From a virus: a DNA stretch of 40,034 nt. This document shows, in pieces, positions 3,901-40,034 of this stretch (its first letter is position 1; each line of letters opens with the position of its first letter). The position numbers and the translations under genes were made by a program. Under the pieces are notes generated by a model. That model did no database searches. It saw only the letters and a list, made by a program, of their open reading frames with translations, and was not told where the DNA came from. The stretch is from the UHGV virus genome UHGV-0388909; one strand, 5' to 3'.

Positions 3901-4115
3901 AAATGCCGCTGACTGATAATGACGGGAGCATCATTGTTGATGAGGATGATAATCCAGTGATGGTAATAGAAGACATCATTGAGCGCGTTGAAATAACGCC
4001 AGCAGGATCTAGATGGGGGGTCAGACCTGATCTCTTATTCTATATCGAGGCAGCATGGCAGCGCAGAGAAATGGATAAGATAAAAGAGCGGGTTCAGTCT
4101 CTGGAAGAACGTTAA
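996..4115 (+). CDS. Tailspike/tail fibre: N-terminal anchor domain, central sialidase-like depolymerase, C-terminal intramolecular chaperone (peptidase S74-like)
   Basis: Two Asp-box motifs (SGDDGKTW, SSDLGTSW); beta-helix-type motif DFGAVGDGINDD; C-terminal ...VTSDGTLK...HHGVIAQQL... typical of self-cleaving chaperone domains. Confidence 0.75.
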   Translation: MTVSTEVDHNEYTGNGVTTSFPYTFRIFRKSDLVVQVSDLNGNVTELVLDTGYTVTGAGTYSGGSVVLPSPLATGWRITIDRVLDVVQDTDLRNQGKFFPEVHEDAFDYLTMLIQQCFGWFRRALMKPSLLAKYYDAKQNKISNLADPSFEQDAVNNRSMRNYVDAAIAGVVGGFGWFIQYGSGAVYRTFQDKMRDAISPKDFGAVGDGINDDSTAISACLEASSPGYKIDGLGLTFKVSTLPDVSRFKNARFLFERIPGQPLFYASEDFIQGELFKITDTPWYNAWTQDKTFVYDNVIYAPFMAGDRHGVNNLHVAWVRSGDDGKTWTTPEWLTDLHENYPTVNYHCMSMGVVRNRLFAVIETRTVRGNKLQVAELWDRPMSRSLRVYGGITKAANQQVAYIRITDHGLFAGDFVNFSNSGVTGVTGNMTVTTVIDKNTFTVTTQNTQDVDQNNEGRYWSFGTSFHSSPWRKTSLGTIPSFVDGSTPVTEIHSFATINDNSFAVGYHNGDIGPRELGILYFSDAFGSPGSFVRRRIPAEYEANASEPCVKYYDGILYLTTRGTLSTRPGSSLHRSSDLGTSWNSLRFPNNVHHSNLPFAKVGDELIIFGSERAFGEWEGGEPDNRYAGNYPRTFMTRVNVNEWSLDNVEWVNVTDQIYQGGIVNSAVGVGSVCIKDNWLYYIFGGEDFLNPWSIGDNNRKYPYVHDGHPADLYCFRVKIKQEEFVSRDFVYGATPNRTLPTFMSTSGVRTVPVPVDFTDDVAVQSLTVHAGTSGQVRAEVKLEGNYAIIAKKVPSDDVTAQRLIVSGGETTSSADGAMITLHGSRSSTPRRAVYNALEHLFENGDVKPYLDNVNALGGPGNRFSTVYLGSNPVVTSDGTLKTEPVSPDEALLDAWGDVRYIAYKWLNAVAIKGEEGARIHHGVIAQQLRDVLISHGLMEEESTTCRYAFLCYDDYPAVYDDVITGQREMPLTDNDGSIIVDEDDNPVMVIEDIIERVEITPAGSRWGVRPDLLFYIEAAWQRREMDKIKERVQSLEER

Positions 4116-4121
4116 AAAAAA

Positions 4122-4141
4122 GCCCGCAAAATATTGCGGGT
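4122..4141. terminator. GC hairpin after the tailspike gene, flanked by A8 upstream and an A-rich run downstream
   Basis: Stem cccgcaa/ttgcggg; better oriented as a minus-strand terminator (U8 on that strand). Confidence 0.4.
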
Positions 4142-4421
4142 ATCAAAAACGGAGTTGGTGAAAAGTTATCTTTGAATTCTATCATGAATCAGTACGTATT
4201 TTAAATACATGTTCAGGTTTATTACACCATAGCATTATTAAATACAAAATTAAGTCTATGGTTCCTGTACAACTGCCCCCACTCTGCTGGCTCGTTCTGT
4301 AAAATCATTAGTACTTTTATTGAGATATATGATATGGAACAATAATGATTCATATATGGTTTACTATGCGGGTTTAGTCATCAATAATTGACTGGCTTAT
4401 AGATAGTAAACAGGAGAAAGT

Positions 4422-4826
4422 ATGTCTGCTCAAGTAACAAGTGAGCAATTAAATCAGTTGCTTAGTTTTGGTTCTCTTGCTGCAGTTATTGCAGGTGTCC
4501 CTCCGGAGGTTGCTTTAGGGGCTTTGGCTGGGGCGGTAATTTTTGTTACCTCTGCAGTAGAGTACCCCATCCGTCGCCGGGTGCTCCTGTCGATGCTCAG
4601 CTTTCTTTGCGGCCTTCTCTTTTACAAACCAGCAGCATCAATTCTTATCGGCATAGCCAGCCTGATCCCTACCATCACGCAGGACTCTTTTGAAAAAGGG
4701 ATTGTTTTCTCTGCAGGCGCATTCGTGTCAGCAATTGTCGCTGTGCGTATTGGTATATGGCTCTATCACCGTTCCGATAATCCACGCGAGTTAATTCCGG
4801 GGAGAAAAGACGATGGTAACGCATGA
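4422..4826 (+). CDS. Holin-like membrane protein (multiple predicted TM segments)
   Basis: Hydrophobic segments; immediately upstream of the endolysin; good Shine-Dalgarno. Confidence 0.55.
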   Translation: MSAQVTSEQLNQLLSFGSLAAVIAGVPPEVALGALAGAVIFVTSAVEYPIRRRVLLSMLSFLCGLLFYKPAASILIGIASLIPTITQDSFEKGIVFSAGAFVSAIVAVRIGIWLYHRSDNPRELIPGRKDDGNA

Positions 4827-5121: not shown

Positions 5122-5740
5122 ACAATTCCAGCGAGCTGCTGGTATCAGCGAGGCACTGGCCGCACGCTGGTTCTCGCATATAACTTCTGCGATGAAAGAG
5201 TTTGGTATCAGCAAAGCAGAAGATCAGGCAATGTTTATTGCTCAAGTCGGGCATGAGTCTGGGGGCTTCACCAGGTTGCAGGAGAATTTCAACTACAGTG
5301 TCAGCGGACTGGCTAACTTCGTTCGGGCTGGGCGTCTCACTCAGGGGCAGGCTAATGCACTGGGGCGCCGTGCTGGTGAACCACCATTGCCACTTGAGCG
5401 CCAGCGCGCGATCGCAAATCTGGTATACAGCAAACGCATGGGGAACAATGCCCCTGGTGATGGCTGGAATTACCGAGGGCGCGGACTTATCCAGATTACC
5501 GGTTTGAATAACTATCGTGATTGCGGAAACGGTCTGAAGGTTGACCTGCTGGAGAGCCCTGAACTGCTGGCGCAGGACGGATATGCGGCTCGTAGCGCGG
5601 CGTGGTTCTTCGCCAGCAAAGGATGCATGAAGTATACCGGCGATATTGCACGTGTAACTCTGATTATCAATGGTGGCCGGAACGGCATCGACGACCGGCG
5701 AGCGCGGTACATCACTGCCAGTAAGGTGCTGGCGGTATGA
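5111..5740 (+). CDS. Endolysin, glycoside hydrolase family 19-like
   Basis: Motif [12 protein letters not shown] and overall GH19-type pattern; start ATG at 5111 with GAGG upstream; the ORF-track start at 4946 is probably an upstream extension. Confidence 0.75.
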
Positions 5741-6219
5741 TCTGGGCATTCGTAAAAGCATACTGGAAACAGTTTCTTATCGTGGCAGTGCTTGCTGTTC
5801 TGGTCATATCAGGAGTGGTTGCCTGGAATATACACGGCAGTCGCCAGTACGATGCCGGGTATGCTCAGGCGGAAGAAGACCGCAAAGCCGAAGAAGACAA
5901 AGTTCGTCAGTACTACGAACAGGAGAAAGTGACCAATGAACGTGAAGCTCAGCAGAGGATCGACCAGGCGCGCAATGATGCTCTTGATGCTGCCGCTAGC
6001 GCTGGCCGGTTGCAGCAACAACTCTTTGCCATCCGTGAGCAGCTCAGGCAGTATAACGCCATTGTCGGCGCTGGGTCGTCAGCCGCAGACACCGGAGTTT
6101 TGCTTGCCGACGTGTTCAGCAAATCTCTCGAGAGAAACAGACAACTGGCAGAGTATGCTGACCGGGCAGCCGAAGCCGGAAGAGTCTGCGAAAAACAGTA
6201 CGACACTTTGACCAGATAG
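5737..6219 (+). CDS. i-spanin (Rz-like): N-terminal TM, coiled-coil periplasmic domain
   Basis: ATGA overlap with the endolysin stop; TM helix followed by a charged, Q/E/R-rich region. Confidence 0.7.
5936..6211 (+). CDS. o-spanin (Rz1-like) lipoprotein embedded in the +1 frame of Rz
   Basis: Signal sequence with lipobox LAGC; entirely nested in Rz; start ambiguous (5936 or 5975). Confidence 0.65.
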   Translation: MNVKLSRGSTRRAMMLLMLPLALAGCSNNSLPSVSSSGSITPLSALGRQPQTPEFCLPTCSANLSRETDNWQSMLTGQPKPEESAKNSTTL

Positions 6220-6239
6220 CATGGCATTTTTCATGGTAC

Positions 6240-6510
6240 TGATTTCCGGTGACGGTATATAAAACGGTACGGGAAAAATTGAGATTTGGAAAAATGTTAT
6301 CACTCAATTGGTTATGGTTATCGTAAATAATTGAGTGGGAATGATTAACAGCTAACTCATAGCAACTCATTCCTATTCAGATACTAATTTAACCCTCTGT
6401 TTTTACAGAGGGTTTTTGTTTTTATGTATTCATTTCTATTCACTCTACACCATATTTTTCGTCGGTACAGGTGACGGTATTACCTTAAAGGTATACTCTC
6501 ATACCGTCAT
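6240..6510. other. Candidate attP region with repeated arm-like sequences
   Basis: Non-coding stretch between the lysis genes and int; GGTGACGGTAT at 6249-6259 and 6470-6480, inverted partner ATACCGTC at 6501-6508, degenerate TTACC palindrome at 6480-6494. Confidence 0.35.
6393..6423 (+). terminator. Rho-independent terminator after the lysis cassette
   Basis: Stem ccctctg/cagaggg followed by TTTTTGTTTTT. Confidence 0.75.
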
Positions 6511-7795: not shown

Positions 7796-8455
7796 CTATC
7801 CTTCCTGGACTTTGGTAAGCGTCAGATTTCCGCAGAACACTGCGCCGGTGTCGATGTACATTTGGTTTGCATACACCAGTGGGTGATGTGCTGGCGTATG
7901 ACCGAAGATGAACAAATCGGCACCGGTTATCTCCGAGACAATACCGTCCTGCGCGTCGCTAACCCGCTCACGATTCCATATCACCATTTCTTCCGGTACT
8001 GGCTTATCGAATGCGTATTCGTTGTGCGGGTAGTCTGCGTGGCAGATGACGACCTTCTTATTGCCGGTAACCAGTTCGATAATCATCGGGAGGTTGGTAA
8101 CCTTTGGCAGAAGGTATTTGAGTTGCACATCCTGCTCAGAATCAAGTTGGTGCCACCATCCACCGCCGTTTGACATCCAATGTCCGAAACTTCCGCCGTT
8201 GACCAGTGCATCCAGCATCATCTGCTCATGGTTGCCACGAACAGCTCGGAACCACGGCATAGTAATCAAATCCAGGCATTCGACGTTTTCAGCGCCGCGG
8301 TCAACAAGGTCACCAACGGAAATAAGCAAATCGCGCGCCGGGTCGAATGAAACTTTGTCGAGTTCGTTCATCAGCAGCGTGTAGCACCCATGCAGATCGC
8401 CGACGACGAAGATATTGCACCAGTCAGCGCCATTGATGCGTTGATATAGGTTCAT
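7796..8455 (-). CDS. Ser/Thr protein phosphatase (calcineurin-like metallophosphoesterase)
   Basis: GDLHG, GDLVDRG and GNHE motifs; start ATG at 8455. Confidence 0.8.
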
Positions 8456-13500: not shown

Positions 13501-14334
13501 ATGAGCAGACATGCAACAGATTGGGCCTGGGAGACAGATCCAGGTAGCTCATCATTAAAGCTCATACTGCTCTCGATGGCTGACAGAGCCGATGAATATA
13601 ACCTCTGCTACCCCAGCATAGAACGCCTCGTTAAAGACACTTGCCTGAATAAAAAAACCGTGCAGGCCGGGCTTATATCGCTCATGAAAATGGGGCTTAT
13701 TTCAGATACCGGAGAGAGAAAGGGAGCGACAAAAAGAGTGCGGGTTTTCTCTCTTAATATAACCAAAAACGGGAACATTAAAGGCAACCGGGAGGGGGGC
13801 AATGATCCCGAAAACGGTAATGTTACCGAAAACGGGAATATACCCAAAAACGGGATGTTGAATGATCCCAAAAACGGGATGTTGAATGATCCCAAAAACG
13901 GGATCCAGAACCAGTCATATAACCAGTCATTTAACCAAGAGAGGGAGAGCAGGACAAAAACCGGGGATTCTGTGCCTCATGACCCCGTCGCAAACAACGC
14001 CGTGATGAATAACTTTGTTCCTCCTGGTGGGCCAGGGCAATTAGGTAAATTTGTCATGCATGAACAATGGCAGCCATCAGATGACTTTCTTCGGAAAAGC
14101 TCATTGCAGGGAATCTACCTGGACAGTCTGCCAACGGCACAGGAACTTGCAGAGTTCAGAATTTACTGGATGGCTGAGGGTAAGGCATACCATCAGGCAC
14201 AGTGGGAGCAGAAGCTGGCAAGGCGCATCCAGTTCTGTAGACAGAAATCAGGTGAAGTCAGAAAGAGCCTTGACTGGCATAACACTGACTGGATAGATGA
14301 GGTGTGGGATGAAATCAACTCCAGAACTTCTTAA
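13501..14334 (+). CDS. Replication initiator (lambda O-like organisation) with internal iterons
   Basis: N-terminal HTH-like domain; central low-complexity region encoded by iterons; position after cro. Confidence 0.6.
   Translation: MSRHATDWAWETDPGSSSLKLILLSMADRADEYNLCYPSIERLVKDTCLNKKTVQAGLISLMKMGLISDTGERKGATKRVRVFSLNITKNGNIKGNREGGNDPENGNVTENGNIPKNGMLNDPKNGMLNDPKNGIQNQSYNQSFNQERESRTKTGDSVPHDPVANNAVMNNFVPPGGPGQLGKFVMHEQWQPSDDFLRKSSLQGIYLDSLPTAQELAEFRIYWMAEGKAYHQAQWEQKLARRIQFCRQKSGEVRKSLDWHNTDWIDEVWDEINSRTS
13763..13906 (+). repeat. Iterons: about six copies of CC(C/G)AAAACGGGA(A/T), last three at 24-25 bp spacing; candidate replication origin
   Basis: Direct repeats including exact 24-bp duplication cccaaaaacgggatgttgaatgat. 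Confidence 0.7.
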
Positions 14335-29359: not shown

Positions 29360-29823
29360 TGATCGATGTTCAAATTATTCCCGCTACCGAAGAGCATCTT
29401 CAGATGATTTTGCCGGATGTTCGTCAGGCTGATATTGACGAACTGTATGCGGTATCGCTGATGACTACCGAAGATGCGCTGCGCGTTGGTCTTCGCACTG
29501 CGACTATGGCCTGGTCAGGGTTCGCGAACGGAGAACTGGTAACCATGTTTGGTGTATCTCCGGCGTCAATGATCGGTGGCAATGGTACGCCCTGGCTGGT
29601 CGGAACCAGCCGCATCGAAAAATATCAGAAGACATTTCTTCGCCACTGCCGCCCTGTATTGCAGCAGATGCTGGCAGTTTATCCGCGCCTGGAAAACTAT
29701 GTCGACGAGCGAAACCATGTTGCCAAAGCATGGCTGCACTGGCTTGGATTCAGGCTTGAAGAAGCCGCGCCTTATGGTGCTCTTGGTCTTAATTTCCACA
29801 GATTTCACATGGAGAGAAAATAA
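29359..29823 (+). CDS. Virion-associated protein
   Basis: Gene order. Confidence 0.35.
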   Translation: MIDVQIIPATEEHLQMILPDVRQADIDELYAVSLMTTEDALRVGLRTATMAWSGFANGELVTMFGVSPASMIGGNGTPWLVGTSRIEKYQKTFLRHCRPVLQQMLAVYPRLENYVDERNHVAKAWLHWLGFRLEEAAPYGALGLNFHRFHMERK

Positions 29824-30398
29824 TGTGCGATCCGGTTATTGCTGGTGGCGCAATGCTCGCCATGAGTGGCATTCAGGCATACACCCAGTACCAACAGGGA
29901 AAGTATGCCTCGAAGGTTGCAGAAGCGAACGCAGATATAGCCACTGCTCAGGCAAATGATGCAATAAACAGAGGTAACGCTGAAGCTGAGCAACGGCGCA
30001 GAGAGACCCGACAGCGGCTTGGTACTCAAGCGGCGACAATGGGGGCGACCGGCGCCGATTTATCTACCGGTAACGCGCTGGATATATTTGGCGACACTGC
30101 CCAGTTTGGCGCTCTTGATTCGCTGACGACGGTGAATAACGCGCAACGCGAGGCTTACGGTTATCAGGTTCAGGCTGCCAACTATAAAGCAGAAGCCAGT
30201 TCAGCCCGTAAACAGGGGAATGTGGGAGCAGCAACAACATTGCTCACTGCGCCTCTGAAGGCATACGGTGCGTACCAGATGTTTGGTGGGACGTGGAGTC
30301 CGTTCTCTAAAGGAAGTACATCTAGTGGTGGGACGCCAATGTTATCTAACTCAGGTTTTATGAATTCTGACTCCCGATTCAAAATAGGAGGTTACTGA
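29823..30398 (+). CDS. Internal virion / ejection protein (small)
   Basis: Gene order; Ala/Gln-rich. Confidence 0.4.
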   Translation: MCDPVIAGGAMLAMSGIQAYTQYQQGKYASKVAEANADIATAQANDAINRGNAEAEQRRRETRQRLGTQAATMGATGADLSTGNALDIFGDTAQFGALDSLTTVNNAQREAYGYQVQAANYKAEASSARKQGNVGAATTLLTAPLKAYGAYQMFGGTWSPFSKGSTSSGGTPMLSNSGFMNSDSRFKIGGY

Positions 30399-33145
30399 TG
30401 CCTGTTGTTCCTACTACATCCGGACGCCAGGTGCAAAGTCGTGGTGTGCAAACCGGTGGTTTTCAAACCTTCGATGTTCCTCAAGCAGGTCAGGTGCTGG
30501 CGAATGTCGCAGATCAGTATGCGGTGGCATATGGTGAAGCCAGGCAGAAAGCGAATGTTGCTATGGCCCAGGAGGCGTTACTGCAATTTAACCAATTTGC
30601 AGATGACCAGATTAACAACCCAGAAAATGGGCTGATTTCTAAACAGGGTAAAAACGCTCTTGGTCAGAGTGACGCTGTTATGAAAAATATGCAGGAAAGG
30701 GCTCAGGCATTATTAGGCTCAATTCCTGAAAGTGAGGAAAGGAATAAATTATCCTTTCAACTCCAGCAGTCTATGCAGTCTTATTACAATCAGGCACGTC
30801 GATATGAAGTTGGGCAGTTTCAGCAATTCCAAGATCAAACGTATTTGTCAGGAAATGCATTGGCTGTCACTCAGTCTGCGGGGCTATATAGCGATAACCA
30901 AGCATTTGTCGATTTAGCCAAGCAGCGATTTGAATCTATTGATCAATACGCTGATGCGCATGGGCTTCCTGATGAGTGGCGTGTTCAGCAGAAAACTCAG
31001 CTCAAGGAACAAATGGGGCAGCAAGCATGGATAGGAAATATCGCTCAAAAATACAACGAGTTTCTTCAGGTTAATGGAGAGCCAGGGGATCTTGACGGTG
31101 TGAGCCGTGCAATGTCACATGGTAATTCATTGGATGCTCGTGGTTTACGTAATAATAATCCTGGTAATATTGAAGCGAGCAAATCTAACCCGTGGGAAGG
31201 TCAGATCGGTAGCGATGGACGTTTTGCAACGTTTGCTACCCCTGAGCATGGAATCCGCGCGTTGGGTAAAAATATGTTGTCTTACCAGCGTCAAGGCTAT
31301 GACACCGTTAGCGAGATTGTTAATCGTTATGCTCCGGCTAGTGATGGTAATAATACTGATGCTTATATTAGGGCATTGTGTGGTGAGCTTGGTGTTGGGG
31401 AGAATGATCAGCTTGATATCTCTAACCCAAAGACACTAGCTGCTTTATGTGCTGGGATTATTAAACACGAAAATGGCAGTATGCCTTATAGCACCGAACA
31501 GCTTGAAACTGGTATCTCGGCAGCCCTTGGTCTAACTAACCTTGATTCACCTAAGCGTTATACGGGCAATGCGGCATTTGATGCTATGAGCCCTCAAATG
31601 CAAATACAGGCATTGAGGCAGGCTAATGAGCTGAGAAATCAGTACCGCCAGCAGTATGCGGACCAGCTTAGCACCGTAGTTAAAGATGCATATTCAGCCC
31701 TTGATGAAGGATTGAAACCTGAGCAGTTACCTTCTGAGGACGATTTTATCCGGGCCAATGGTCCGCGCATTGGCGCTATGAAGTGGAAGGATATGCAGGC
31801 GCAGATACAATATGGAGGTGTCATTGGTGCCGCTAAAGACCTCACTCCAGAAGGACGACAAGACATTCTTGAACGTTTACGTCCACAGGATCCAAACGCT
31901 CCTGGATTTGCAGCTAACCAGCAACGCTGGGAGAAAATGCAGGCCAAATTTAAAGAGATGGATAGGGAGTGGGAGATTCAGCAGGGAAGAAACAGGTTCG
32001 TGTCTTCAATGCAAAATAACTTCCCGCTGGACCCGAACGACAAAAACAATCAGGCAGTGGTAGACCGTTATTTCGCGCAGGATATCGCGCCTTCGTTTTC
32101 CATATCTGATCCGCAGAGCATCAATACACTGGTCACCGTCACAACTAAAAGCGGCATGATACCAACTCAGGTTAAAACAATGCTTAACAGTGGAGCAACA
32201 TCAAGAGATCCTGCGCTGGTTGTCCCGATGGCAAAATTCTACGGTCAGTTATTCGATAATAATCCGGCGGCAGCGGCAACACTTGATAAAAGTACGATGG
32301 CATTTTACGGCAAGGTTTACGATTATTCCCGCGCTGGCGTGCCGGAGGATAAGGCTGTTGATATGGCTTACAGCCAGGTGTTCCAACAGGATGACCGAAT
32401 GAAACAGATGCTTTCCACTGCCATGCGAGACAAAAAATATGTCGCGGCGAGGGCAACTGCTGCACAAAATAACGCCAGCAGTCTGACTTCCTTTGGTTCG
32501 TGGTCTCCGGATATTACCGATCCAGGAAAATCAAATGCGGCCTATCAGCGAGATTACCAGACAATTTACGATGCTAACTTTGTACAGACAGGTGGCGATG
32601 CAGAACAGGCTGAGAAAATGACCAATGCCATGATCAGAACCACTTGGGGAGTTTCTACGGTTAATGGCAAAGCAGAGGTTATGAAGTATGCACCTGAGGC
32701 ATTGTACGGAGTAAATAATGGTGCTGGTAACTGGATACAGGGGCAGTGGGAGCAGGAAAAACGCGAGCTTAAATCAAAATCCTTTGGCGGTCCTCGCAGT
32801 GATACGGACTTAATACTTGTTTCTGATGGCCTTACGGCAAGGGATAGGAGTTATGCTGTTATGGTTTTACAGCCTGACGCAAACGGAGCGATAGAACCGA
32901 GAAATTATATTGGAGAAAATGGTCTCCCTGTTCGTTTCAAGCCGGATCAGCTGACATCTCCAATGTACAGGCAAACCATTCAGTTCCAGCAACAGCGTGT
33001 TGATGAGGCTAGAGTGCGGAGAGAAGGCAATCCGCTGCCGCAGTTCAGCAATAAAGATGGATATACTCCTCCAGATCTGACCAAACCATTCGGTTATGGT
33101 TCAGCCAATTACCTTCCGAGCAATATATACGCAGGGGGCAAATAA
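30398..33145 (+). CDS. Internal virion / ejection protein (915 aa)
   Basis: Gene order and size; contains LRNNNPGNI-type segment. Confidence 0.45.
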   Translation: MPVVPTTSGRQVQSRGVQTGGFQTFDVPQAGQVLANVADQYAVAYGEARQKANVAMAQEALLQFNQFADDQINNPENGLISKQGKNALGQSDAVMKNMQERAQALLGSIPESEERNKLSFQLQQSMQSYYNQARRYEVGQFQQFQDQTYLSGNALAVTQSAGLYSDNQAFVDLAKQRFESIDQYADAHGLPDEWRVQQKTQLKEQMGQQAWIGNIAQKYNEFLQVNGEPGDLDGVSRAMSHGNSLDARGLRNNNPGNIEASKSNPWEGQIGSDGRFATFATPEHGIRALGKNMLSYQRQGYDTVSEIVNRYAPASDGNNTDAYIRALCGELGVGENDQLDISNPKTLAALCAGIIKHENGSMPYSTEQLETGISAALGLTNLDSPKRYTGNAAFDAMSPQMQIQALRQANELRNQYRQQYADQLSTVVKDAYSALDEGLKPEQLPSEDDFIRANGPRIGAMKWKDMQAQIQYGGVIGAAKDLTPEGRQDILERLRPQDPNAPGFAANQQRWEKMQAKFKEMDREWEIQQGRNRFVSSMQNNFPLDPNDKNNQAVVDRYFAQDIAPSFSISDPQSINTLVTVTTKSGMIPTQVKTMLNSGATSRDPALVVPMAKFYGQLFDNNPAAAATLDKSTMAFYGKVYDYSRAGVPEDKAVDMAYSQVFQQDDRMKQMLSTAMRDKKYVAARATAAQNNASSLTSFGSWSPDITDPGKSNAAYQRDYQTIYDANFVQTGGDAEQAEKMTNAMIRTTWGVSTVNGKAEVMKYAPEALYGVNNGAGNWIQGQWEQEKRELKSKSFGGPRSDTDLILVSDGLTARDRSYAVMVLQPDANGAIEPRNYIGENGLPVRFKPDQLTSPMYRQTIQFQQQRVDEARVRREGNPLPQFSNKDGYTPPDLTKPFGYGSANYLPSNIYAGGK

Positions 33146-36100
33146 TGCCGATATATGAACAGGATCCTAAAGAGTTGCTTGGCGAGGATATTCAGCAAAT
33201 AGCAGCACCTGATGACAGTAATTTCTATATGGAAACACCTTCTTTGCTTTCTGCTGTGAACCCATTTACCAGTGATCAACGCGTTCAAAGGTCTAGACAA
33301 GCAGCATTTCGTATAGATAACACGCTGGGTAGCTTTATTGCCAGTGCTCCTTTCAGTCAGTTTGACAGGGTTGAAGGATATAACCCATTTGATAACGATG
33401 CAGCAGATATTAAAGGCTATGAAGATTTTGCAGATTCGTTTATCAACTCCGGTTCGCATGAAGAAACAATGGCAATTAAACATCGAATCGATAAGCAAAG
33501 AACAGATAGAGAATATCTATCTGAAATGGGTGGTGCTGGTACTATTTCAAGCTTAGCAATGGGAATGATAGACCCGGTTAATGTGGCTGCAATGTTCATC
33601 CCTGTAGGGGCGGTAGCGCGTGGAGGAAGTATTGCTGAGACGGCAGGGCGTTTTGCCCTGGCGAATGCTGCTGGTGGGGGAGTATCAGAAGCCGCATTAC
33701 AGGCCACTCAGGAAGCTCGCTCACCGATGGAGAGCGTATCGAACGTTGTTGTTGATGCTCTCGTTGGTGGGATCCTTGGTGCTGGTGCACAGCTACTTGC
33801 TGGACCTAGCGCGCGCGAGGCAGTGGTTAACTCAGTAGGTAATCATTTGCGAGGTATGGATTCTCCTCAAAGCATTGGTGCAGCTCAGGTTTTCAATACC
33901 ACACTCGATCAGGAACAGCTCGCTGGACTTGGACTTGCTAACAAAACGTTGAGTGTCACTCCTGCTGGCCGCTTGGCGCAATCACCATCTCTTGTCTCCC
34001 GTCAGATTAACCAGCAGCTTGCCGAAAATAACTATTTCTTCGCCAAAAATGATGAGGGGTTGGCTACGTTTACGGCAGTCGAGACTAAGATTAAGCAATA
34101 CGACGCCATGCTTTATAAGCAGATGGAAGCCACTCGTGATGCTTATCAGCAGTACAGCAAATCTGTTAGCGCCCGCGGCGTGAAGAGGATGAACTTTATT
34201 GATTTCAATGAAGCTGTTGGCATGGCCATGCGCCGTGGTGATCAGAGTGATATTCCTGAGGTTTCACAAGCAGCCGCCAGAATCCGCCCCATTTTCGAGA
34301 TCACAAAAGCCCGTATGCAGGAACTGGGGATCCTTCCTGAGGATATCGATGTCGTGACGGCGAAAAGTTATCTTCCCCGCATTTATAAGTTCGATAAGAT
34401 ACTTTCCGACCGCACTGAATTCAGAGGGCGAATTGCCAACTGGATACAAGGGATTAGTGCCAAAGGTGCTGACAAGGCAGGTCAGCGAATTGAAAGGATA
34501 AATTCATTGCTAAAAACTGCAGAGGAATCGGCACCGCGCGCTGATGCTCTCGCTAGTGAAATCGCTGAAGCGGAGAAATGGTCTGGTAAAAAAATTCTAC
34601 TCATGGAAGAACTGGATAAACGAAATAAGCTTATATCTCAGGAGACTGACACACAGGCGCGTCTTACAAGAATAGAAAAAGAGTTGGCCGAGACTTCATC
34701 AGAAAAACTTCAGGCAAGAATGATGAAAGAAAGCTCTGACCTTAAAACACGCCTTGATGATATAGCGCAGGCAAAGAGTGAGCTTCCTGTCTATCAGCGC
34801 CATATGGAGTTGCTGGATAATCCACGGAAATATCGTTCTGAGCTTCGCCGACTGCAAAAACGGGCAAATTCAACCACAAGGCTGAATGCAAGCCGCGAAC
34901 GAGCACTGAAGCAGATGGAGCCTCTATCCCGAGAGGAAGCAGAGGACGCTGCTGACGAGATCGTGAATAAAATAATAGGCGCACCTTCCGGGCTTGTACC
35001 AGCCGATATTATCCCAGAGAGACTCGTTGGTCGGGCTGGTTTCACTAAAAGCAGAACGCTGCTTATTCCTGATGAGCGTATAGAAGATTTTCTTGAATCA
35101 GATGTTAACTACATCATGGAAAGTTATCTCCGGCAGGTGGCACCAGAAATTGAGCTGACTGCGCAGTTTGGCCGTAAAGATATGGGGGAGCAAATCCGTC
35201 AGGTTAGTGAGGAATATACCCGGCTAATAAAAGAGGCTAAAACACCTAAACGACGTGCAGTTCTTGAGAAGCAACGGGAGGCTGATATTAGGGATATTAC
35301 GGCTATGCGTGATCGACTGCTTGGTACTTACGGTGCACCTCAAGATCCACGCAGTTTCTTTGTTCGTGCCGGGCGAGTTGCTAGGAATATTAACTTCCTC
35401 CGTTTGCTTGGTGGAATGACTGTCTCCGCTGCAACTGATCTGATGCGACCGATGATGCAGCATGGCCTGAGAAAATCTCTCGGACCAATGGTAAGCATGC
35501 TTAAAAATATGGACTCAGTGAAAATTGCAACCAGGGATTTGCGAGAAATGGCCGTTGGGCTTGATTATGTCCTGTCTACGCGTACAAAGGCTATAGCGGA
35601 TCTTACTGACCCCTATAGCCGGAGAAGCGCCGCTGAGCGAGGTCTGAACTGGATGACGCAGAAATTCGGTAACTGGACGCTGATGAATCAGTGGAACAGC
35701 GCACTTAAATCATGGTCTGGGATGATAGTGCAGTCGAGGATACTTGACGCGGCTCGCCAAGTTTCTGCTGGTGGCACGCTCTCCAAAAGTGAAATGCGGA
35801 AGATGGCACAGGTCGGCATCAATGAAGATGTTCTGCGTCGAATCGGGGAGCAATTCGGGAAGCACGGAGAGGATATGGACGGGCTGTTAACCGGGCATAG
35901 TCATCTGTGGGATGACCGTTTCGCTAGAGAGATTTTCCAGTCTGCAGTGCTGAAAGATGTAGACTCAGTGATTGTAACGCCTGGCGTAGGTGATACACCG
36001 CTGTTTTTTAGTAAAGAAGGCTGGAAGATGATCACGCAGTTCAAAACGTTTATCTTCGCACAGCATAACAGGGTGCTGGTATCTGGTATCCAGCAGGGCG

Positions 36101-36534
36101 ATGCTGCATTCTATCTTGGTGCGCTTGGCACGATTGCGCTTGGCTCAATGGTCTATATGATGAAACAGAAGTTAAGCGGTCGCGATATTGACTACAGCTG
36201 GAATAACCTTGTGAAAGAGGGGATCGACCGGGGCGGAATGCTTGGCTGGCTCTCTGAGCCGCTGAATACCGTTGAGAACATAAGCGGTGGTAGGTTTGGT
36301 CTTGGCGCGATGTTTGGTGCGCCTCCGGTATCAAGGTTTCAGAGTCGTAATGCTATTGGTGCTTTACTTGGTCCTACCTTTGATCTTGGCGGTGATGCCG
36401 CGACGGTTGCGAATGGTGTACTTAACGGAGAATTTGACAGCCAGCAAACCCACGCGGTCCGTAAAATGCTACCTTTTCAGAACCTGTGGGCGATATCACC
36501 ATTACTAAATAAAGTTGAAGAGCAGATGAAATAG
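33145..36534 (+). CDS. Large internal virion / DNA-ejection protein (1129 aa)
   Basis: Gene order; coiled-coil-rich centre. Confidence 0.45.
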   Translation: MPIYEQDPKELLGEDIQQIAAPDDSNFYMETPSLLSAVNPFTSDQRVQRSRQAAFRIDNTLGSFIASAPFSQFDRVEGYNPFDNDAADIKGYEDFADSFINSGSHEETMAIKHRIDKQRTDREYLSEMGGAGTISSLAMGMIDPVNVAAMFIPVGAVARGGSIAETAGRFALANAAGGGVSEAALQATQEARSPMESVSNVVVDALVGGILGAGAQLLAGPSAREAVVNSVGNHLRGMDSPQSIGAAQVFNTTLDQEQLAGLGLANKTLSVTPAGRLAQSPSLVSRQINQQLAENNYFFAKNDEGLATFTAVETKIKQYDAMLYKQMEATRDAYQQYSKSVSARGVKRMNFIDFNEAVGMAMRRGDQSDIPEVSQAAARIRPIFEITKARMQELGILPEDIDVVTAKSYLPRIYKFDKILSDRTEFRGRIANWIQGISAKGADKAGQRIERINSLLKTAEESAPRADALASEIAEAEKWSGKKILLMEELDKRNKLISQETDTQARLTRIEKELAETSSEKLQARMMKESSDLKTRLDDIAQAKSELPVYQRHMELLDNPRKYRSELRRLQKRANSTTRLNASRERALKQMEPLSREEAEDAADEIVNKIIGAPSGLVPADIIPERLVGRAGFTKSRTLLIPDERIEDFLESDVNYIMESYLRQVAPEIELTAQFGRKDMGEQIRQVSEEYTRLIKEAKTPKRRAVLEKQREADIRDITAMRDRLLGTYGAPQDPRSFFVRAGRVARNINFLRLLGGMTVSAATDLMRPMMQHGLRKSLGPMVSMLKNMDSVKIATRDLREMAVGLDYVLSTRTKAIADLTDPYSRRSAAERGLNWMTQKFGNWTLMNQWNSALKSWSGMIVQSRILDAARQVSAGGTLSKSEMRKMAQVGINEDVLRRIGEQFGKHGEDMDGLLTGHSHLWDDRFAREIFQSAVLKDVDSVIVTPGVGDTPLFFSKEGWKMITQFKTFIFAQHNRVLVSGIQQGDAAFYLGALGTIALGSMVYMMKQKLSGRDIDYSWNNLVKEGIDRGGMLGWLSEPLNTVENISGGRFGLGAMFGAPPVSRFQSRNAIGALLGPTFDLGGDAATVANGVLNGEFDSQQTHAVRKMLPFQNLWAISPLLNKVEEQMK

Positions 36535-36535
36535 G

Positions 36536-37387
36536 ATGAAAAAAATAAATTTGTTTTTTGGCATAGTGCTTTCAATAGTCTCTGTAAATCCTACAGCTGC
36601 CAGTTCATTGCAATGCAATAAGGATAACTTTGATGCATGCAAAACGTGTGAACAATTATCAAAGGCTATCGACTTAAAAGAACCTAATCGTGGCGATTAC
36701 TATAGAGGGGCTTTATGGAATGGGCTTTACGCCTCTTATGTAATTAATTGCCCTGTGGTTGCTGAGAAGTTACTGAGCCATGGTGCTATACCATCATATG
36801 GCGGATATATGGGGTCTATGGGGGCGGTTCTGACAGGAAAATGGCCTCATAACAATGAATCAATAAATCTTTCATGGGCAGATTTGCTTATAAAACATGG
36901 ATTTGATGTTAATAGGCATACGGGGAATTATAAATCAGCTACTGAAGTATGGGCTATAGATAAAAAACAGATTGAATATAAGTCAGTTTTTGACAAGTTA
37001 ATTCAATCCAGCGAAGTAAAACCACTCGATCCTTCAAGAAATTTAGAATGGTGTGCGTCTGAAGGGTATCGCTCAGTTGTCGTTTATTCCCTTAACTCAT
37101 GTATAGAAAATGCTATAAAACGTTTGGATGATGGTGTTTCTTCAGCGTCTGATATTTCATCAGCAGCCGTAAATTCCTGTACTAGCGATGTAGAAAATTT
37201 CAATAAGCATTTGGCATGCAAAGCAGCTGTTAAAGAAAACTCTGATAAAGAGAGAAGCGACGTTTACCAGTTATTAACCAGTGATAGTCAAATGAATAAA
37301 AATGTTATTGATATGCTGAAGGAAAGAAATATTGAAACGGTTCTTGAATTTAGAGCTGAAAATCGATCAGCGAAAACTGCACAGTGA
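36536..37387 (+). CDS. AT-rich moron: secreted protein with possible ankyrin-like repeats
   Basis: N-terminal signal peptide; visibly lower GC than neighbours; motifs AEKLLSHGA and ADLLIKHGFDVN. Confidence 0.45.
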   Translation: MKKINLFFGIVLSIVSVNPTAASSLQCNKDNFDACKTCEQLSKAIDLKEPNRGDYYRGALWNGLYASYVINCPVVAEKLLSHGAIPSYGGYMGSMGAVLTGKWPHNNESINLSWADLLIKHGFDVNRHTGNYKSATEVWAIDKKQIEYKSVFDKLIQSSEVKPLDPSRNLEWCASEGYRSVVVYSLNSCIENAIKRLDDGVSSASDISSAAVNSCTSDVENFNKHLACKAAVKENSDKERSDVYQLLTSDSQMNKNVIDMLKERNIETVLEFRAENRSAKTAQ

Positions 37388-37416
37388 TCAAACAGGCCGC
37401 TTTCGCGGCCTTGTTT

Positions 37417-37578
37417 TTAACGAATGCCACCGCCGCCCGGGCGGGAATCCGCAGAACGCCCACCGCAGCGGGAGCCGTCAGCAGCAGTATCGCTGTCGTG
37501 CTGACAACGACCGGCAAAGGCCTGAGTTGAAGCTACCAGAGACAACAAAACGAACAGTGCAGCAAATGCTTTTTTCAT
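37417..37578 (-). CDS. Small secreted peptide (about 53 aa with signal peptide)
   Basis: Signal sequence then Gly/Arg/Cys-rich tail; start at internal ATG 37578. Confidence 0.35.
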   Translation of the reverse strand: MKKAFAALFVLLSLVASTQAFAGRCQHDSDTAADGSRCGGRSADSRPGGGGIR

Positions 37579-37659
37579 TGTGAAATTTCCATCTATAAAC
37601 CACCTCAATGTGGCGTCAATGAGTGTAGCACTGACTTTTGTTTCGTCCATAAAAAACTA

Positions 37660-38172
37660 CTATGCAGGCTTTTTGGATTTGTACGAATAATCCCACGGAT
37701 AAACATTTCTACTAAGTGGAGCTGTATTCGTTCGTTCATGAAATAATTTTGTGAAATTCAATACGGAATCCATCCAAACTTTTGCGTTAGCTTTGGTGTG
37801 TGCGGGCGGGTCCCAATAAGCTAGTAAGGCTGCATCTCTTATTTCATTGACTGCATATATGAGATATGCGTTACTGGTTGGTTTTGGCCTGTAATTTCCT
37901 TGTTCATCAATCAATCCATATGACCACTCATCCCAACACTGTTCAGTACATGAGTATGAATATGATGCATATTCACCAATATTGACATGAACCTTTCTGA
38001 GATGGAAGCCTAATACTTCCTCTGGTCTTTCAAAAAGAGTATCTTTTCCCAGATCAGGATGATGACCATGACGCCAGTGTTGTTTAAAAGCATCTTTTAG
38101 CGAAATCAGAAAGTCATCAGTTTTAAACTCACCAGTAGGTATAACCTTCCCGCTATACTCACTCAAAAACAT
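37660..38172 (-). CDS. YafO-like toxin candidate
   Basis: Recalled resemblance to E. coli YafO blocks; overlaps the upstream gene. Confidence 0.4.
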   Translation of the reverse strand: MFLSEYSGKVIPTGEFKTDDFLISLKDAFKQHWRHGHHPDLGKDTLFERPEEVLGFHLRKVHVNIGEYASYSYSCTEQCWDEWSYGLIDEQGNYRPKPTSNAYLIYAVNEIRDAALLAYWDPPAHTKANAKVWMDSVLNFTKLFHERTNTAPLSRNVYPWDYSYKSKKPA

Positions 38173-38485
38173 CGAATTCCTCTTCCTTCATATGCGTTTC
38201 TAATGAGTTAAGCTGGCGGAAAGATATCTCTTTTGATTCTGCAGATGAGAGCTTTTTTATCCGCTTTATATTCTTTGTGATAGGAATAGACATTGTATGC
38301 ACATCAGCGGATGCTCTTGGCTTTGTGCTGATAAAAATATGGCGCAATGCCGCATTTTCACTATTGAACGAGCCAATAGCTGATTTACGTGCTACAACCT
38401 TACCAGTAAAAATACGACTCTTGCTACGCTTTGCATGAGTTCCGCTTCTTACCGGACCTCTCATCACGAATCCAAGTTTTGTCAT
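38159..38485 (-). CDS. Basic small protein with acidic C-terminal tail; candidate antitoxin of the YafO-like gene
   Basis: Upstream and overlapping the toxin candidate by 14 nt; not recognisably Phd/YefM-like. Confidence 0.35.
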   Translation of the reverse strand: MTKLGFVMRGPVRSGTHAKRSKSRIFTGKVVARKSAIGSFNSENAALRHIFISTKPRASADVHTMSIPITKNIKRIKKLSSAESKEISFRQLNSLETHMKEEEFDVFE

Positions 38486-38615: not shown

Positions 38616-39326
38616 TCAGAAGAACCCTGCCTTGTCGTTGATGTACTCCGCGTGCGTCTGGATATCACGCAGGCATTTGCTCACACCAACGATGTAGCAG
38701 AACATGGTGGTCAGCTCCGCCGCCGCGCCCGATACGTCGTGCCCGTCTTCCTGTAACTGGTTCAGCAAATTCATCAGCAGTGAGTTCTCCGTCAGGCCGA
38801 GAACACCAGACGGCGAATGAATCAGGCTACGGTAGCCGGGCTTCAGTGGGGCGCTGTAGGTTTTGTTCTCTATCTTCATCGCCTGCATTACTGCTGACGC
38901 CGTGGCGTTGGCTACCTGGTCGGCAACCATCTTTATGCGTTCTTCCTGCGGGAGCGAGTTTTTAATGTAGCTTCCGGTGCGGCGGATCTGAGGAAGAACC
39001 TCACCTGTAACCCATTTACGAAAGCGGTAGGGGATAGTGCCTGGTGTCACTGCGTCGCGGCAGCGGAGGATCAGTGTGTAGAGGCCTGACTCGGAGATGA
39101 TGTTGATCTCTTTTACTCGGCTGTCAAAAATTGCACGATGTTCATGCCCTATGTTGAACATAGACCTTTCATCATCATCCAGTTTTTCAAGTGCTTGGGT
39201 GACGTTTTGGATACGCAGCGCACTACAAACGTCTTGGGCTACAAACCATGGTTGGCCATCGATAATGATGGAACGGATAGGGTTAACAGATTCAAATTTG
39301 AAGATGGAAGTTTGAGCATTAGCCAT
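38616..39326 (-). CDS. Antirepressor with Bro-N domain
   Basis: N-terminal ...IIIDGQPWFVAQDVCSALRI... typical of Bro-N/antirepressor proteins; ATG at 39326 with GGAG; the ORF-track start at 39341 is GTG inside the RBS. Confidence 0.7.
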   Translation of the reverse strand: MANAQTSIFKFESVNPIRSIIIDGQPWFVAQDVCSALRIQNVTQALEKLDDDERSMFNIGHEHRAIFDSRVKEINIISESGLYTLILRCRDAVTPGTIPYRFRKWVTGEVLPQIRRTGSYIKNSLPQEERIKMVADQVANATASAVMQAMKIENKTYSAPLKPGYRSLIHSPSGVLGLTENSLLMNLLNQLQEDGHDVSGAAAELTTMFCYIVGVSKCLRDIQTHAEYINDKAGFF

Positions 39327-39341
39327 GGTGGTTATCTCCAC

Positions 39342-39620
39342 TTAGTGATTTTAATCACCACCGCAACGCCAATTACTGGTGGTGAACTGGACAAGGTTGG
39401 CGTACCGGCCTAAGTGGTACCGGCGTCCTTTCGGACCCCTGCCCAGCCCACCATAATTCGGATATAGCTGTGCTTAACGCATAAAAAAACCACGTCTGGC
39501 GTGGTATGCGCCACTTAGTAACCCGGGACGCCAATCCCGGCACTGGATTTTGCCAGTGCCCGATTACTATGGCACAAGAGGAGTGCGATGTAAATTTACC
39601 GCAAAGGTAATGATAAACGC
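39342..39620 (-). promoter_or_regulatory. Structured 5' leader of the antirepressor gene with three 8-nt elements, an internal terminator hairpin and a palindrome operator (39596-39610)
   Basis: CCACTTAG at 39338-39345 and 39511-39518; complementary CTAAGTGG at 39410-39417; hairpin ccacg-n5-cgtgg plus U7 at 39482-39504. Confidence 0.5.
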
Positions 39621-39688
39621 GAAGAAATATTAAAATCAACCGTATTTGGTTGATTGCGTTTAACGCTTGATCACCTGAAAGCAAGATA

Positions 39689-39703
39689 TTACCTTTAAGG
39701 TAA
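39689..39703. promoter_or_regulatory. Perfect palindrome TTACCTTTAAGGTAA just upstream of the RBS of the junction-spanning gene
   Basis: Same palindrome family. Confidence 0.55.
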
Positions 39704-39723
39704 TGTTATTGTGAGGAAAAGCA

Positions 39724-40034
39724 ATGGAAGTTTTCTGGATAGTTGTTGGTGTGGTTGCGGTGATTATTTACGTTATCAACCAGAACAAGACTAAGATCTC
39801 TGATCGTACGGTCGTTAATCAGAACAAAACGATAAAGACCGAAGATGGGGAGGTAACGATTAGTCGTACACAGGTGATAGAACACACATCTACTCAGTTT
39901 CAAAAAACTGGAGGTAACGCGCCTGATATTTCCGTACCTCCTGCTTATGATAGTGCGGTAATCCAGACATATTATAAACAGCAGGAGTTAGCAAAAGAGA
40001 GGCAACTGATTCAGCCAAAGCCGTTTACAGCTGA
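39724..40034 (+). CDS. N-terminal part (TM anchor plus linker) of the Cys-rich protein continuing at 103-520
   Basis: ATG at 39724 with GAGGA upstream; hydrophobic N-terminus; reading frame continues through the terminal overlap into ORF 23-520. Confidence 0.5.
   Translation, partial: MEVFWIVVGVVAVIIYVINQNKTKISDRTVVNQNKTIKTEDGEVTISRTQVIEHTSTQFQKTGGNAPDISVPPAYDSAVIQTYYKQQELAKERQLIQPKPFTA

What the first reader, a model, noticed from the sequence alone, without database searches (positions are those of the whole stretch)
36536..37650. AT-rich secreted protein with ankyrin-like repeats, convergent with a small secreted Cys/Gly/Arg-rich peptide
The 283-aa ORF right after the last ejection-protein gene has a signal peptide, visibly lower GC than the rest of the genome, and ankyrin-like repeat motifs. 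Facing it is a GC-rich gene for a signal-peptide-bearing peptide of about 30 mature residues. Both look like cargo, possibly lysogenic-conversion or exclusion factors.
Basis: seen in the sequence. Interest (0 to 1): 0.45.

Follow-up and report, generated by a model that had tools for sequence, protein, structure and literature searches.

The report
Prophage periplasmic protein, likely cell-wall-enzyme inhibitor
A rare add-on gene at the end of this E. coli prophage's DNA-injection gene cluster encodes an exported two-domain protein whose first domain, in unrelated bacteria, sits beside the same cell-wall-cutting enzyme that the phage carries in its injection machinery, so it probably blocks that enzyme in the periplasm to keep out rival phages, though this is inferred and not shown.

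Summary
ORF 36536-37387 (283 aa) starts 1 nt after the last ejection-protein gene. It is the lowest-GC stretch of the window (0.369 against 0.486), has a Sec-type signal peptide and 8 invariant cysteines, and is under purifying selection (dN/dS 0.16). It converges on a shared terminator with a small gene, best read as 53 aa (37417-37578).

The 283-aa protein is rare accessory cargo: 1 of 50,697 phage records and 72 of 5,426 E. coli genomes. It has no Pfam, NCBIfam or PADLOC match. It is a fusion of two exported modules that also exist alone:
- **N-domain:** a divergent ankyrin pair. Stand-alone copies lie directly next to a signal-peptide-less Enc34-type (PHA02564) peptidoglycan glycosidase in 3 of 12 independent contexts, one of them beside tssH. 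That is an effector/immunity layout.
- **Link to this phage:** its own 915-aa ejection protein carries the same enzyme domain.
- **C-domain:** stand-alone copies sit in prophage accessory slots, one right after a CI repressor.

Best reading (inferred, about 0.45): a periplasmic inhibitor of this glycosidase, acting like T4 Spackle in superinfection exclusion, or as orphan T6SS immunity. No promoter for expression in the lysogen was found.

The small peptide is an independent and far more widespread cargo gene of unknown function.

The parts
36536..37387 (+). Gene for the 283-aa exported two-domain protein (phrog_6118, unknown function); stop codon included
   Evidence: Homologues occur only in epsilon15-like prophages of Enterobacterales, always directly after the ~1130-aa ejection gene.
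36536..36604 (+). Sec-type signal peptide (aa 1-23, MKKINLFFGIVLSIVSVNPTAAS)
   Evidence: Read from the sequence. N-terminal hydrophobic segments are kept in all 15 aligned homologues while their sequence varies. No signal-peptide predictor was available.
36605..37015 (+). N-domain (aa 24-160): 4-Cys cap plus two divergent ankyrin-like repeats. Putative binder or inhibitor of the Enc34-type glycosidase.
37016..37384 (+). C-domain (aa 161-283): disulfide-stapled helical bundle with motif C..I..LDDG(I/V)SxASDI..A...C; target unknown
37394..37411 (.). GC-rich stem-loop terminator shared by the two convergent genes. T-run on the + strand, weaker U-tract on the - strand.
   Evidence: -16.5 kcal/mol, z -3.7. 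The same 48 bp are annotated 'terminator' in phiV10.
37417..37578 (-). 53-aa pre-peptide: signal peptide MKKAFAALFVLLSLVASTQAFA, mature GRCQHDSDTAADGSRCGGRSADSRPGGGGIR. Independent cargo gene, function unknown.
   Evidence: (phrog_14503 'membrane associated protein')
30398..33145 (+). 915-aa ejection protein. Residues ~245-395 (nt ~31130-31582) form an Enc34-type (PHA02564) peptidoglycan glycosidase domain with RNNNPGNI and HENG motifs. This is the proposed target class of the N-domain.
   Evidence: 7q47 E 1e-16; 9vvp Gp29 E 7e-36; PMC8943055
33145..36534 (+). 1129-aa last ejection (internal virion) protein gene. The 283-aa gene follows after 1 nt.
   Evidence: phrog_342; gp14-like gene at 29823-30398

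Best explanation
The 283-aa protein is an accessory, Sec-exported, disulfide-bonded periplasmic protein made by fusing two independent secreted modules.

Proposed mechanism (inferred):
1. The N-terminal module, a disulfide-capped pair of divergent ankyrin repeats, binds and blocks Enc34-type (PHA02564) peptidoglycan glycosidase domains that arrive in the periplasm from outside.
2. The phage's own 915-aa ejection protein, and those of its relatives, carry exactly this domain.
3. A cell making the protein should therefore stop related podophages from cutting through the cell wall. That is superinfection exclusion in the manner of T4 Spackle against gp5 lysozyme.
4. The C-terminal helical module is a second binder whose target is unknown.

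Shown here:
- The gene is real and under selection.
- Export signals and invariant cysteines are present.
- The two-module architecture.
- The ankyrin-like nature of the N-domain.
- The Enc34-type domain in the ejection protein.
- The gene-neighbourhood coupling of the N-domain family with Enc34-type enzymes.

Inferred:
- Physical binding and inhibition.
- The exclusion phenotype.
- When the gene is expressed.
For: (1) Export. All homologues have a signal peptide and 8 invariant Cys in two groups of four. The stand-alone N- and C-domain families also carry signal peptides.

(2) The target domain is present in the phage. Residues ~245-395 of the 915-aa ejection protein match the Enc34 endolysin catalytic domain (PDB 7q47, E 1e-16) and keep the HENG catalytic-Glu motif. 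Enc34 is a proven muralytic enzyme (PMC8943055).

(3) Coupling. Of 12 distinct contexts of stand-alone N-domain genes, 3 are directly adjacent to a small Enc34-type gene lacking a signal peptide:
- L013, 4-nt overlap.
- L087, 4-nt overlap, E 9e-46.
- L043, E 1e-29.
A fourth (L012) lies in a prophage whose tape-measure protein carries the domain. The chance expectation for adjacency is my rough estimate, about 5e-4 per gene.

(4) The L043 pair lies 1.3 kb from tssH (TIGR03345, 1274 bits). A cytoplasmic enzyme next to a periplasmic partner is the effector/immunity layout. An Enc34-like T6SS effector (Tae5) with a signal-peptide immunity of 18.5 kDa has been described (PMC13340143).

(5) Synteny. 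The gene always follows the ejection genes in E. coli, Klebsiella, Serratia, Morganella and Providencia prophages, down to 40% identity.

(6) The stand-alone C-domain sits right after a CI-like repressor in L083, a classic exclusion-gene position.

(7) Precedents:
- Spackle (PMC7677548).
- The ankyrin immunity protein Bd3460 against peptidoglycan endopeptidases (PMC4686830).
- P22 sieA, which occupies the equivalent slot after gene 16 (position from memory; mechanism from PMC10883804).
Against: - No binding or inhibition data exist, and no co-fold could be run.
- 8 of 12 stand-alone N-domain contexts show no Enc34-type neighbour. These include a conserved chromosomal locus in Burkholderiaceae.
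- No sigma-70 promoter was found upstream, and the gene is coupled to the late operon, so expression in the lysogen is unproven.
- Ankyrin similarity is weak: no Pfam hit, Foldseek E>1.
- The N-domain model has low-confidence loops, with overall pLDDT 77.
- The C-domain has no informative relatives.
- There is no sequence similarity to Spackle or to any solved inhibitor.
Confidence: 0.45

Rival explanations
1. Orphan type VI immunity (lysogenic conversion). The biochemical activity is the same, blocking Enc34-type glycosidases. The benefit would be protection of the lysogen from T6SS effectors of competing bacteria, not from phages.
Against: - In Enterobacterales the gene is found only inside epsilon15-like prophages, right behind ejection genes that carry the domain.
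- No Enc34-type T6SS effector of enterobacteria was identified here.
- There is no promoter evidence for expression in the lysogen.
Confidence: 0.15
2. Periplasmic cargo with a function unrelated to peptidoglycan hydrolases, for example binding a host envelope protein, modulating the lysis timing of its own phage, or an interaction with the animal host. On this reading the Enc34 neighbourhoods of distant relatives do not transfer to this protein.
For: - Most stand-alone N-domain contexts lack an Enc34-type neighbour.
- Ankyrin repeats are generic binders.
- The C-domain is unexplained.
- The gene sits in late-operon position.
- In Morganella and Providencia prophages the endolysin is also Enc34-type, so a lysis-timing role is conceivable there.
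Against: - The window's own endolysin is not Enc34-type, and neither is the Serratia one, yet the gene is kept.
- Three independent adjacencies to a rare enzyme family are hard to explain by chance.
- There is no type III or IV secretion signal or context for a eukaryote-directed role.
Confidence: 0.3
3. A fourth ejection or virion protein, made with the other internal proteins and packaged.
For: 1-nt spacing after the last ejection gene, same strand, no promoter of its own, and conserved synteny across genera.
Against: - The signal peptide and 8 disulfide-type cysteines fit export, not cytoplasmic assembly.
- The gene is absent from most relatives (TL-2011b, phiV10) and present in 1 of 50,697 phage records.
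- The slot holds unrelated genes elsewhere.
- GC content is foreign to the structural module.
Confidence: 0.05

Closest known systems
T4 Spackle (Sp, gp61.3), periplasmic inhibitor of the gp5 tail lysozyme (PMC7677548)
   Same: A phage-encoded, signal-peptide-bearing, helical periplasmic protein. The proposed action is the same: neutralise the wall-cutting domain that an incoming virion delivers into the periplasm, giving exclusion of related phages.
   Different: - No sequence or fold relationship.
- Spackle is a 97-aa single domain of a lytic myovirus and is expressed early. This protein is a 283-aa two-domain fusion in a temperate podovirus, placed at the end of the late operon.
- The target would be an Enc34-type glycosidase, not a T4-type lysozyme.
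- Inhibition is not shown here.
Bd3460 of Bdellovibrio bacteriovorus, ankyrin-repeat self-protection protein against peptidoglycan DD-endopeptidases (PMC4686830)
   Same: An exported ankyrin-type protein, encoded next to the peptidoglycan hydrolase it neutralises. One N-domain/enzyme pair found here (L013) is from a Bacteriovoracia genome.
T6SS effector-immunity pairs for periplasm-acting toxins: Tae5/Tai5a with an Enc34-like domain in Stenotrophomonas rhizophila (PMC13340143), and the ankyrin immunity of the E. cloacae lipase effector (PDB 7ubz)
   Same: The same gene layout in L013, L043 and L087: an enzyme without a signal peptide next to a small periplasmic partner. L043 lies beside tssH. 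Tai5a has the size of the stand-alone N-domain proteins.
   Different: The window gene is in a prophage, fused to a second domain, and its neighbour enzyme is part of an ejection protein. The Tai5a sequence could not be compared here.
P22 SieA superinfection exclusion protein (PMC10883804)
   Same: An accessory gene in the slot just after the last ejection-protein gene of a temperate podovirus (P22 position from memory). SieA acts on the ejection-protein conduit.
   Different: [quoted passage not shown] The protein here is soluble after signal-peptide removal, and no promoter was found. No homology was tested or expected.
Bacterial periplasmic lysozyme inhibitors (Ivy, MliC/PliC, PliG, LprI)
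   Same: Exported proteins that protect the sacculus from exogenous muramidases. Some N-domain homologues are lone chromosomal genes, as these are.
   Different: No Pfam match to any of these families. The fold is different (helical repeat).

Membership tests
Ankyrin repeat proteins (Pfam Ank clan) | Match to Pfam Ank/Ank_2-5 models | tested here: not met
   No Pfam family at E<=0.1 for the 283-aa protein or for stand-alone N-domain proteins.
Ankyrin repeat proteins (Pfam Ank clan) | Profile-level similarity to bona fide ankyrin repeats | tested here: met
   The family profile hits P0061 (E 2e-9, 7 stretches), P0076, P0078 and P0085, all with 8-18 Pfam Ank repeats. Weak DARPin alignments over residues 68-136.
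Ankyrin repeat proteins (Pfam Ank clan) | Stacked helix-turn-helix repeat fold | tested here: inconclusive
T4 Spackle-type exclusion proteins | Homology to Spackle | tested here: not met
T4 Spackle-type exclusion proteins | Periplasmic location | tested here: met
   Signal peptide and invariant disulfide-type cysteines are read from the sequence and the alignment. This is a prediction, not an experiment.
T4 Spackle-type exclusion proteins | Binds and inhibits the wall-hydrolase domain of the incoming virion protein | not testable with these tools
   Only gene-neighbourhood coupling of the N-domain family with Enc34-type enzymes is available.
T4 Spackle-type exclusion proteins | Expressed when superinfection must be blocked (early, or in the lysogen) | tested here: inconclusive
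   No promoter-like site on the + strand within 36000-37400. The gene follows the late operon after 1 nt.
T6SS immunity proteins | Encoded next to the cognate effector, near T6SS genes | tested here: not met
   Not met for the window gene, which is in a prophage with no T6SS genes. Met for the stand-alone homologue in L043 (tssH 1.3 kb away). Adjacency alone is met for L013 and L087.
P22 SieA | Integral inner-membrane protein | tested here: not met
   The only hydrophobic segment is the N-terminal signal peptide. The rest is modelled as soluble helices.
P22 SieA | Sequence homology to SieA types | not tested
   No SieA sequence was compared.
Virion ejection (internal) proteins | Made in the cytoplasm, conserved across the phage group | tested here: not met
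   A signal peptide is present. The gene is absent from TL-2011b and phiV10 and occurs in 1 of 50,697 phage records.
Known lysozyme inhibitors (Ivy, MliC/PliC, PliG, LprI) | Match to their Pfam models | tested here: not met
   No Pfam hits.
Enc34-type endolysin domain (PHA02564), for the 915-aa ejection protein | Sequence match to the Enc34 catalytic domain with the catalytic Glu retained | tested here: met
   7q47 E 1.2e-16 over residues 14-129 of the query. 'IIKHENGS' aligns with Enc34 'IIRHENGS'. The catalytic residue is Glu131 according to PMC8943055.

The most novel reading that the evidence does not exclude
The protein is a two-headed exclusion factor. One head (the ankyrin-like N-domain) belongs to a previously undescribed immunity family for Enc34-type peptidoglycan glycosidases, shared between T6SS effector-immunity pairs and phages. 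The other head blocks a second component of the ejection conduit. On this reading one prophage gene would protect ExPEC K1 lysogens against both related podophages and T6SS attack. It would be the first inhibitor known to target the wall-cutting step of short-tailed phage DNA delivery.
Probability: 0.15. Interest if true: 0.75.

Novelty: new variant of a known kind. Interest (0 to 1): 0.55.

Why it matters
If the prediction holds:
- It defines a new immunity/inhibitor family for a recently recognised class of cell-wall hydrolases (Enc34 type).
- It links phage superinfection exclusion with T6SS immunity.
- It gives temperate podophages a Spackle-like mechanism.

The gene sits in endosialidase-bearing prophages of K1 ExPEC strains (IHE3034, APEC O18). 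It could therefore affect the success of K1-specific phage therapy and of Enc34-type enzybiotics.

It also gives two unannotated secreted domains a testable function.

Tried and rejected
Searches that gave nothing informative:
- Pfam, NCBIfam and PADLOC found nothing for the 283-aa protein, either domain family, or the small peptide. PHROGs gave only 'unknown function'.
- The PDB sequence profile search gave chance-level hits.
- Foldseek against PDB was not significant.
- Searching papers by WP accessions and by the PHROG id found nothing.
- tblastn of a stand-alone N-domain protein found nothing in plasmids and only EC.W1-9 in phages.

Searches of limited yield:
- The genome-contig scan returned only 2 loci. 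The first attempt failed for lack of a conserved stretch.
- The C-domain searches found few, short, unnamed contigs.
- Cluster look-ups gave no accessions, so Tai5a could not be compared.

Corrections and rejected ideas:
- I first took the RNNNPGNI domain for Pae87 (PF11860). Reading the paper showed Pae87 is 7q4s/7q4t and that 7q47 is the Enc34 endolysin. This was corrected.
- I suspected the window was phage CUS-3. CUS-3 has P22-type ejection genes, so this is a different, epsilon15-like K1 prophage.
- A lipoprotein reading was rejected: there is no lipobox before C27.
- The promoter scan found no site upstream of either gene.
- A co-fold of the protein with the glycosidase domain was not attempted.

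Full report
**What the window is.** It is an epsilon15/phiV10-like temperate podophage of E. coli.
- Its closest phage record is EC.W1-9 (99% identity over the region).
- It has an endosialidase tailspike (996-4115), holins and an integrase.
- Its ejection genes follow the T7 order: a gp14-like gene (29823-30398, PF24072), a 915-aa gene (30398-33145) and a 1129-aa gene (33145-36534).

**Check of the observation.**
- ORF 36536-37387 (283 aa) starts 1 nt after the stop of the 1129-aa gene.
- Its GC is 0.369 (GC3 0.282) against 0.486 for the window. It is the lowest 852-nt stretch in the window, about 3.3 sd below the mean.
- The N-terminus is a typical Sec signal: MKK, 14 hydrophobic residues, then NPTAAS.
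- An alignment of 15 homologues (down to 39% identity) keeps such an N-terminus and has eight invariant cysteines in two groups of four: C27/35/38/72 and C173/189/215/228.
- dN/dS against Klebsiella-type homologues is 0.16. The gene is real and selected.
- The facing gene is best read as 53 aa (37417-37578), as in EC.W1-9 and TL-2011b and in phrog_14503. It has a 22-aa signal peptide ending AFA and a 31-aa Gly/Arg/Asp/Ser-rich mature peptide. Its two cysteines are conserved in Klebsiella phages.
- Between the genes lies a stem-loop (37394-37411; -16.5 kcal/mol, z -3.7) that is annotated as a terminator in phiV10.

**Distribution.**
- The 283-aa protein is rare. It occurs in 1 of 50,697 phage records and in 72 of 5,426 complete E. 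coli genomes, including IHE3034 and APEC O18.
- All protein homologues are from Enterobacterales: Klebsiella 84-89% identity, Serratia about 58%, Morganella and Providencia about 40%.
- In every locus examined it lies directly after the ~1130-aa ejection gene of an epsilon15-like prophage.
- The homologues stay 9-17 GC points below their neighbouring gene in all genera.
- The slot is variable. TL-2011b has arc/ant there. Klebsiella phage ST512-KPC3phi13.3 has an unrelated 204-aa cytoplasmic protein.
- The query region, which includes the peptide gene, matches at least partly in 499 E. coli genomes. Phage records show the peptide and terminator paired with different partners. The two genes of the finding are therefore neighbours, not a unit.

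**Architecture.**
- No Pfam, NCBIfam or PADLOC family matches. PHROGs gives phrog_6118, function unknown.
- An exhaustive profile search showed that the protein is a fusion of two modules that also exist alone, each with its own signal peptide.
- The N-domain (aa ~24-160) recurs as 160-175-aa proteins with the motif C..DFQ.CKSC ... GDYYRGA.WNGLY.AYV.NC..VA..LL..GA.P..GG ... KWPH.N..IN..WA.LL.
- The C-domain (aa ~161-283) recurs as 110-155-aa proteins with C..I..LDDG(I/V)SPASDIA.AV..C.
- AlphaFold gave an all-helical model: pLDDT 77 for the whole protein and 92 for the C-domain alone.

**Is the N-domain ankyrin-like?**
- Pfam's Ank models do not detect it.
- The family profile hits genuine multi-ankyrin proteins (E 2e-9 with seven stretches).
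- Foldseek was not significant.
- The C-domain has no informative structural relative.

**The functional lead.**
- The 915-aa ejection protein contains, at residues ~245-395, the motif RNNNPGNI...HENG.
- This region matches the catalytic domain of the Hafnia phage Enc34 endolysin (PDB 7q47, E 1e-16) and the N-terminus of a 1295-aa phage protein Gp29 (9vvp, E 7e-36).
- Enc34 defines the PHA02564 family. It is a proven muralytic enzyme with a lysozyme-like alpha-lobe and a catalytic Glu in the HENG motif (PMC8943055). The window protein keeps this Glu.

**Neighbourhoods of stand-alone N-domain genes.** These were collected from genome, metagenome and assembly searches and scanned with an HMM of the Enc34-type domain. 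Of 12 distinct contexts:
- Three have an Enc34-type gene immediately adjacent on the same strand:
  - L013, a Bacteriovoracia MAG: enzyme 5264-5923 and N-domain 5920-6399, 4-nt overlap.
  - L087: N-domain 3754-4266 and enzyme 4263-4802, 4-nt overlap, E 9e-46.
  - L043: N-domain 7938-8411 and enzyme from ~8420, E 1e-29.
- A fourth (L012) is a prophage whose tape-measure-like protein carries the domain 3 kb upstream.
- In all three adjacent pairs the enzyme lacks a signal peptide while the N-domain protein has one.
- The L043 pair lies 1.3 kb from tssH (TIGR03345, 1274 bits, above the cut-off) and an Hcp-like ORF.
- This is the layout of an effector/immunity pair for a periplasm-acting toxin.
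- Independently, an Enc34-like T6SS effector (Tae5) with a signal-peptide immunity of 18.5 kDa has been reported in Stenotrophomonas rhizophila (PMC13340143).
- Adjacency to such a rare enzyme family by chance should be of the order of 5e-4 per gene (my estimate). Three of twelve is therefore far above expectation.
- The other eight contexts show no such neighbour. They include a conserved chromosomal position in Burkholderiaceae, fusions to MORN repeats and arrays of small immunity-like genes (L028, L038). Lone chromosomal copies are also how classical lysozyme inhibitors occur, but this remains a weakness.

**Interpretation.**
- The topology in the phage is the same as in those pairs. A glycosidase domain without an export signal is delivered into the periplasm from outside, here by a virion. 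An exported N-domain protein is waiting there.
- The most economical reading is that the 283-aa protein neutralises Enc34-type domains of incoming ejection proteins. That would be superinfection exclusion analogous to T4 Spackle, which inhibits the gp5 lysozyme (PMC7677548).
- Ankyrin-type immunity against peptidoglycan hydrolases has a precedent in Bd3460 (PMC4686830).
- The stand-alone C-domain occurs in prophage accessory slots: directly after a CI-like repressor in L083 and after a tail-fibre gene in L082. This fits a second, independent exclusion-type module.
- P22 sieA occupies the equivalent slot after gene 16 (position from memory). SieA acts on the ejection conduit and is also up-regulated on induction (PMC10883804).

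**Caveats.**
- Nothing here shows binding.
- No promoter was found upstream, and the gene is tightly coupled to the late operon. Expression in the lysogen is open, and a role late in the lytic cycle is possible.
- The window's own endolysin is not Enc34-type. The Morganella and Providencia prophages have an Enc34-type endolysin as well, so a lysis-timing role cannot be excluded for them.
- A virion role is unlikely because of the signal peptide, the cysteines and the patchy distribution.

**The small peptide.** It is a separate, widespread cargo gene. It sits at the 3' end of the leftward accessory operon (Bro-N/Ant-like gene, 108-aa gene, YafO-like toxin). It is conserved between E. coli and Klebsiella phages, with both cysteines kept and dN/dS about 0.04 with dS saturated. 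It matches no characterised family. Its function stays unknown. A secreted or periplasmic disulfide-looped disordered peptide is all that can be said.

**Verdict.**
- The gene encodes a member of two unannotated secreted domain families.
- It is best explained as a periplasmic inhibitor of the Enc34-type wall hydrolase used by this phage group, with confidence about 0.45. This would be a new variant of known inhibitor and immunity strategies.

Noticed in passing
window 31130-31582 (within 30398-33145, +): The 915-aa ejection protein carries an Enc34-type (PHA02564) peptidoglycan glycosidase domain (RNNNPGNI...HENG). It is not recognised by Pfam or NCBIfam. Its best PDB matches are 9vvp Gp29 and 7q47.
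   Followed up: yes
window 37660-38485 (-): A low-GC (0.39-0.40) overlapping gene pair lies upstream of the small peptide gene: a 108-aa protein (phrog_5933, unknown) and a 170-aa YafO-like protein (PF13957, 20 bits, below the cut-off). It is a possible toxin-antitoxin cargo. IHE3034 has a different 210-aa gene here and a YafO-family gene elsewhere in the region.
   Followed up: partly
window 996-4115 (+): The tailspike is a full endosialidase (End_N_terminal, beta-propeller, beta-barrel, tail-spike and S74 chaperone domains). This is therefore a K1-capsule-specific prophage on an epsilon15-like backbone. It is distinct from the P22-like K1 phage CUS-3, whose ejection genes are of the 7/20/16 type.
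   Followed up: partly
window 13801-13937: A cluster of short tandem repeats: an 18-nt unit x3, a 24-nt unit CCCAAAAACGGGATGTTGAATGAT x2.6 at 100% match, and a 12-nt unit x2.4. It could be an iteron or operator-like array in the early region.
   Followed up: no
L003 12244-12720; L071 12193-12669; L072 15139-15615: In Morganella and Providencia relatives, both the ejection protein and the 159-aa endolysin after the holins are Enc34-type. In the window and in Serratia the endolysin is of another type.
   Followed up: partly
L043 8419-8967; L087 4263-4802: The small Enc34-type enzymes paired with N-domain proteins end in histidine-rich tails (HHHHHPVHHHHPTHHH; HAYHDRSHRHVRHH). The L013 partner instead carries a DUF3892 domain.
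   Followed up: no
L035, L037, L039, L040 (e.g. L037 1963-3339): In marine contigs the N-domain is embedded in a 458-485-aa secreted protein, with MORN repeats before it and an unknown C-terminal part. The gene lies next to an integrase.
   Followed up: no
L038 745-2905; L028 1142-2714: Some stand-alone N-domain genes sit in runs of small signal-peptide or immunity-like genes. In L038 the run lies 1 kb from a weak GH24-like lysozyme ('YLDSEGYVTVGCG'). These look like poly-immunity islands.
   Followed up: partly
window 38616-39341 (-) and 39373-40034: A Bro-N/anti-repressor-like gene (PF02498, phrog_130) heads the leftward accessory operon. TL-2011b has a full arc-ant immI module at the position of the 283-aa gene, so this region is the immI-equivalent mosaic hotspot.
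   Followed up: partly
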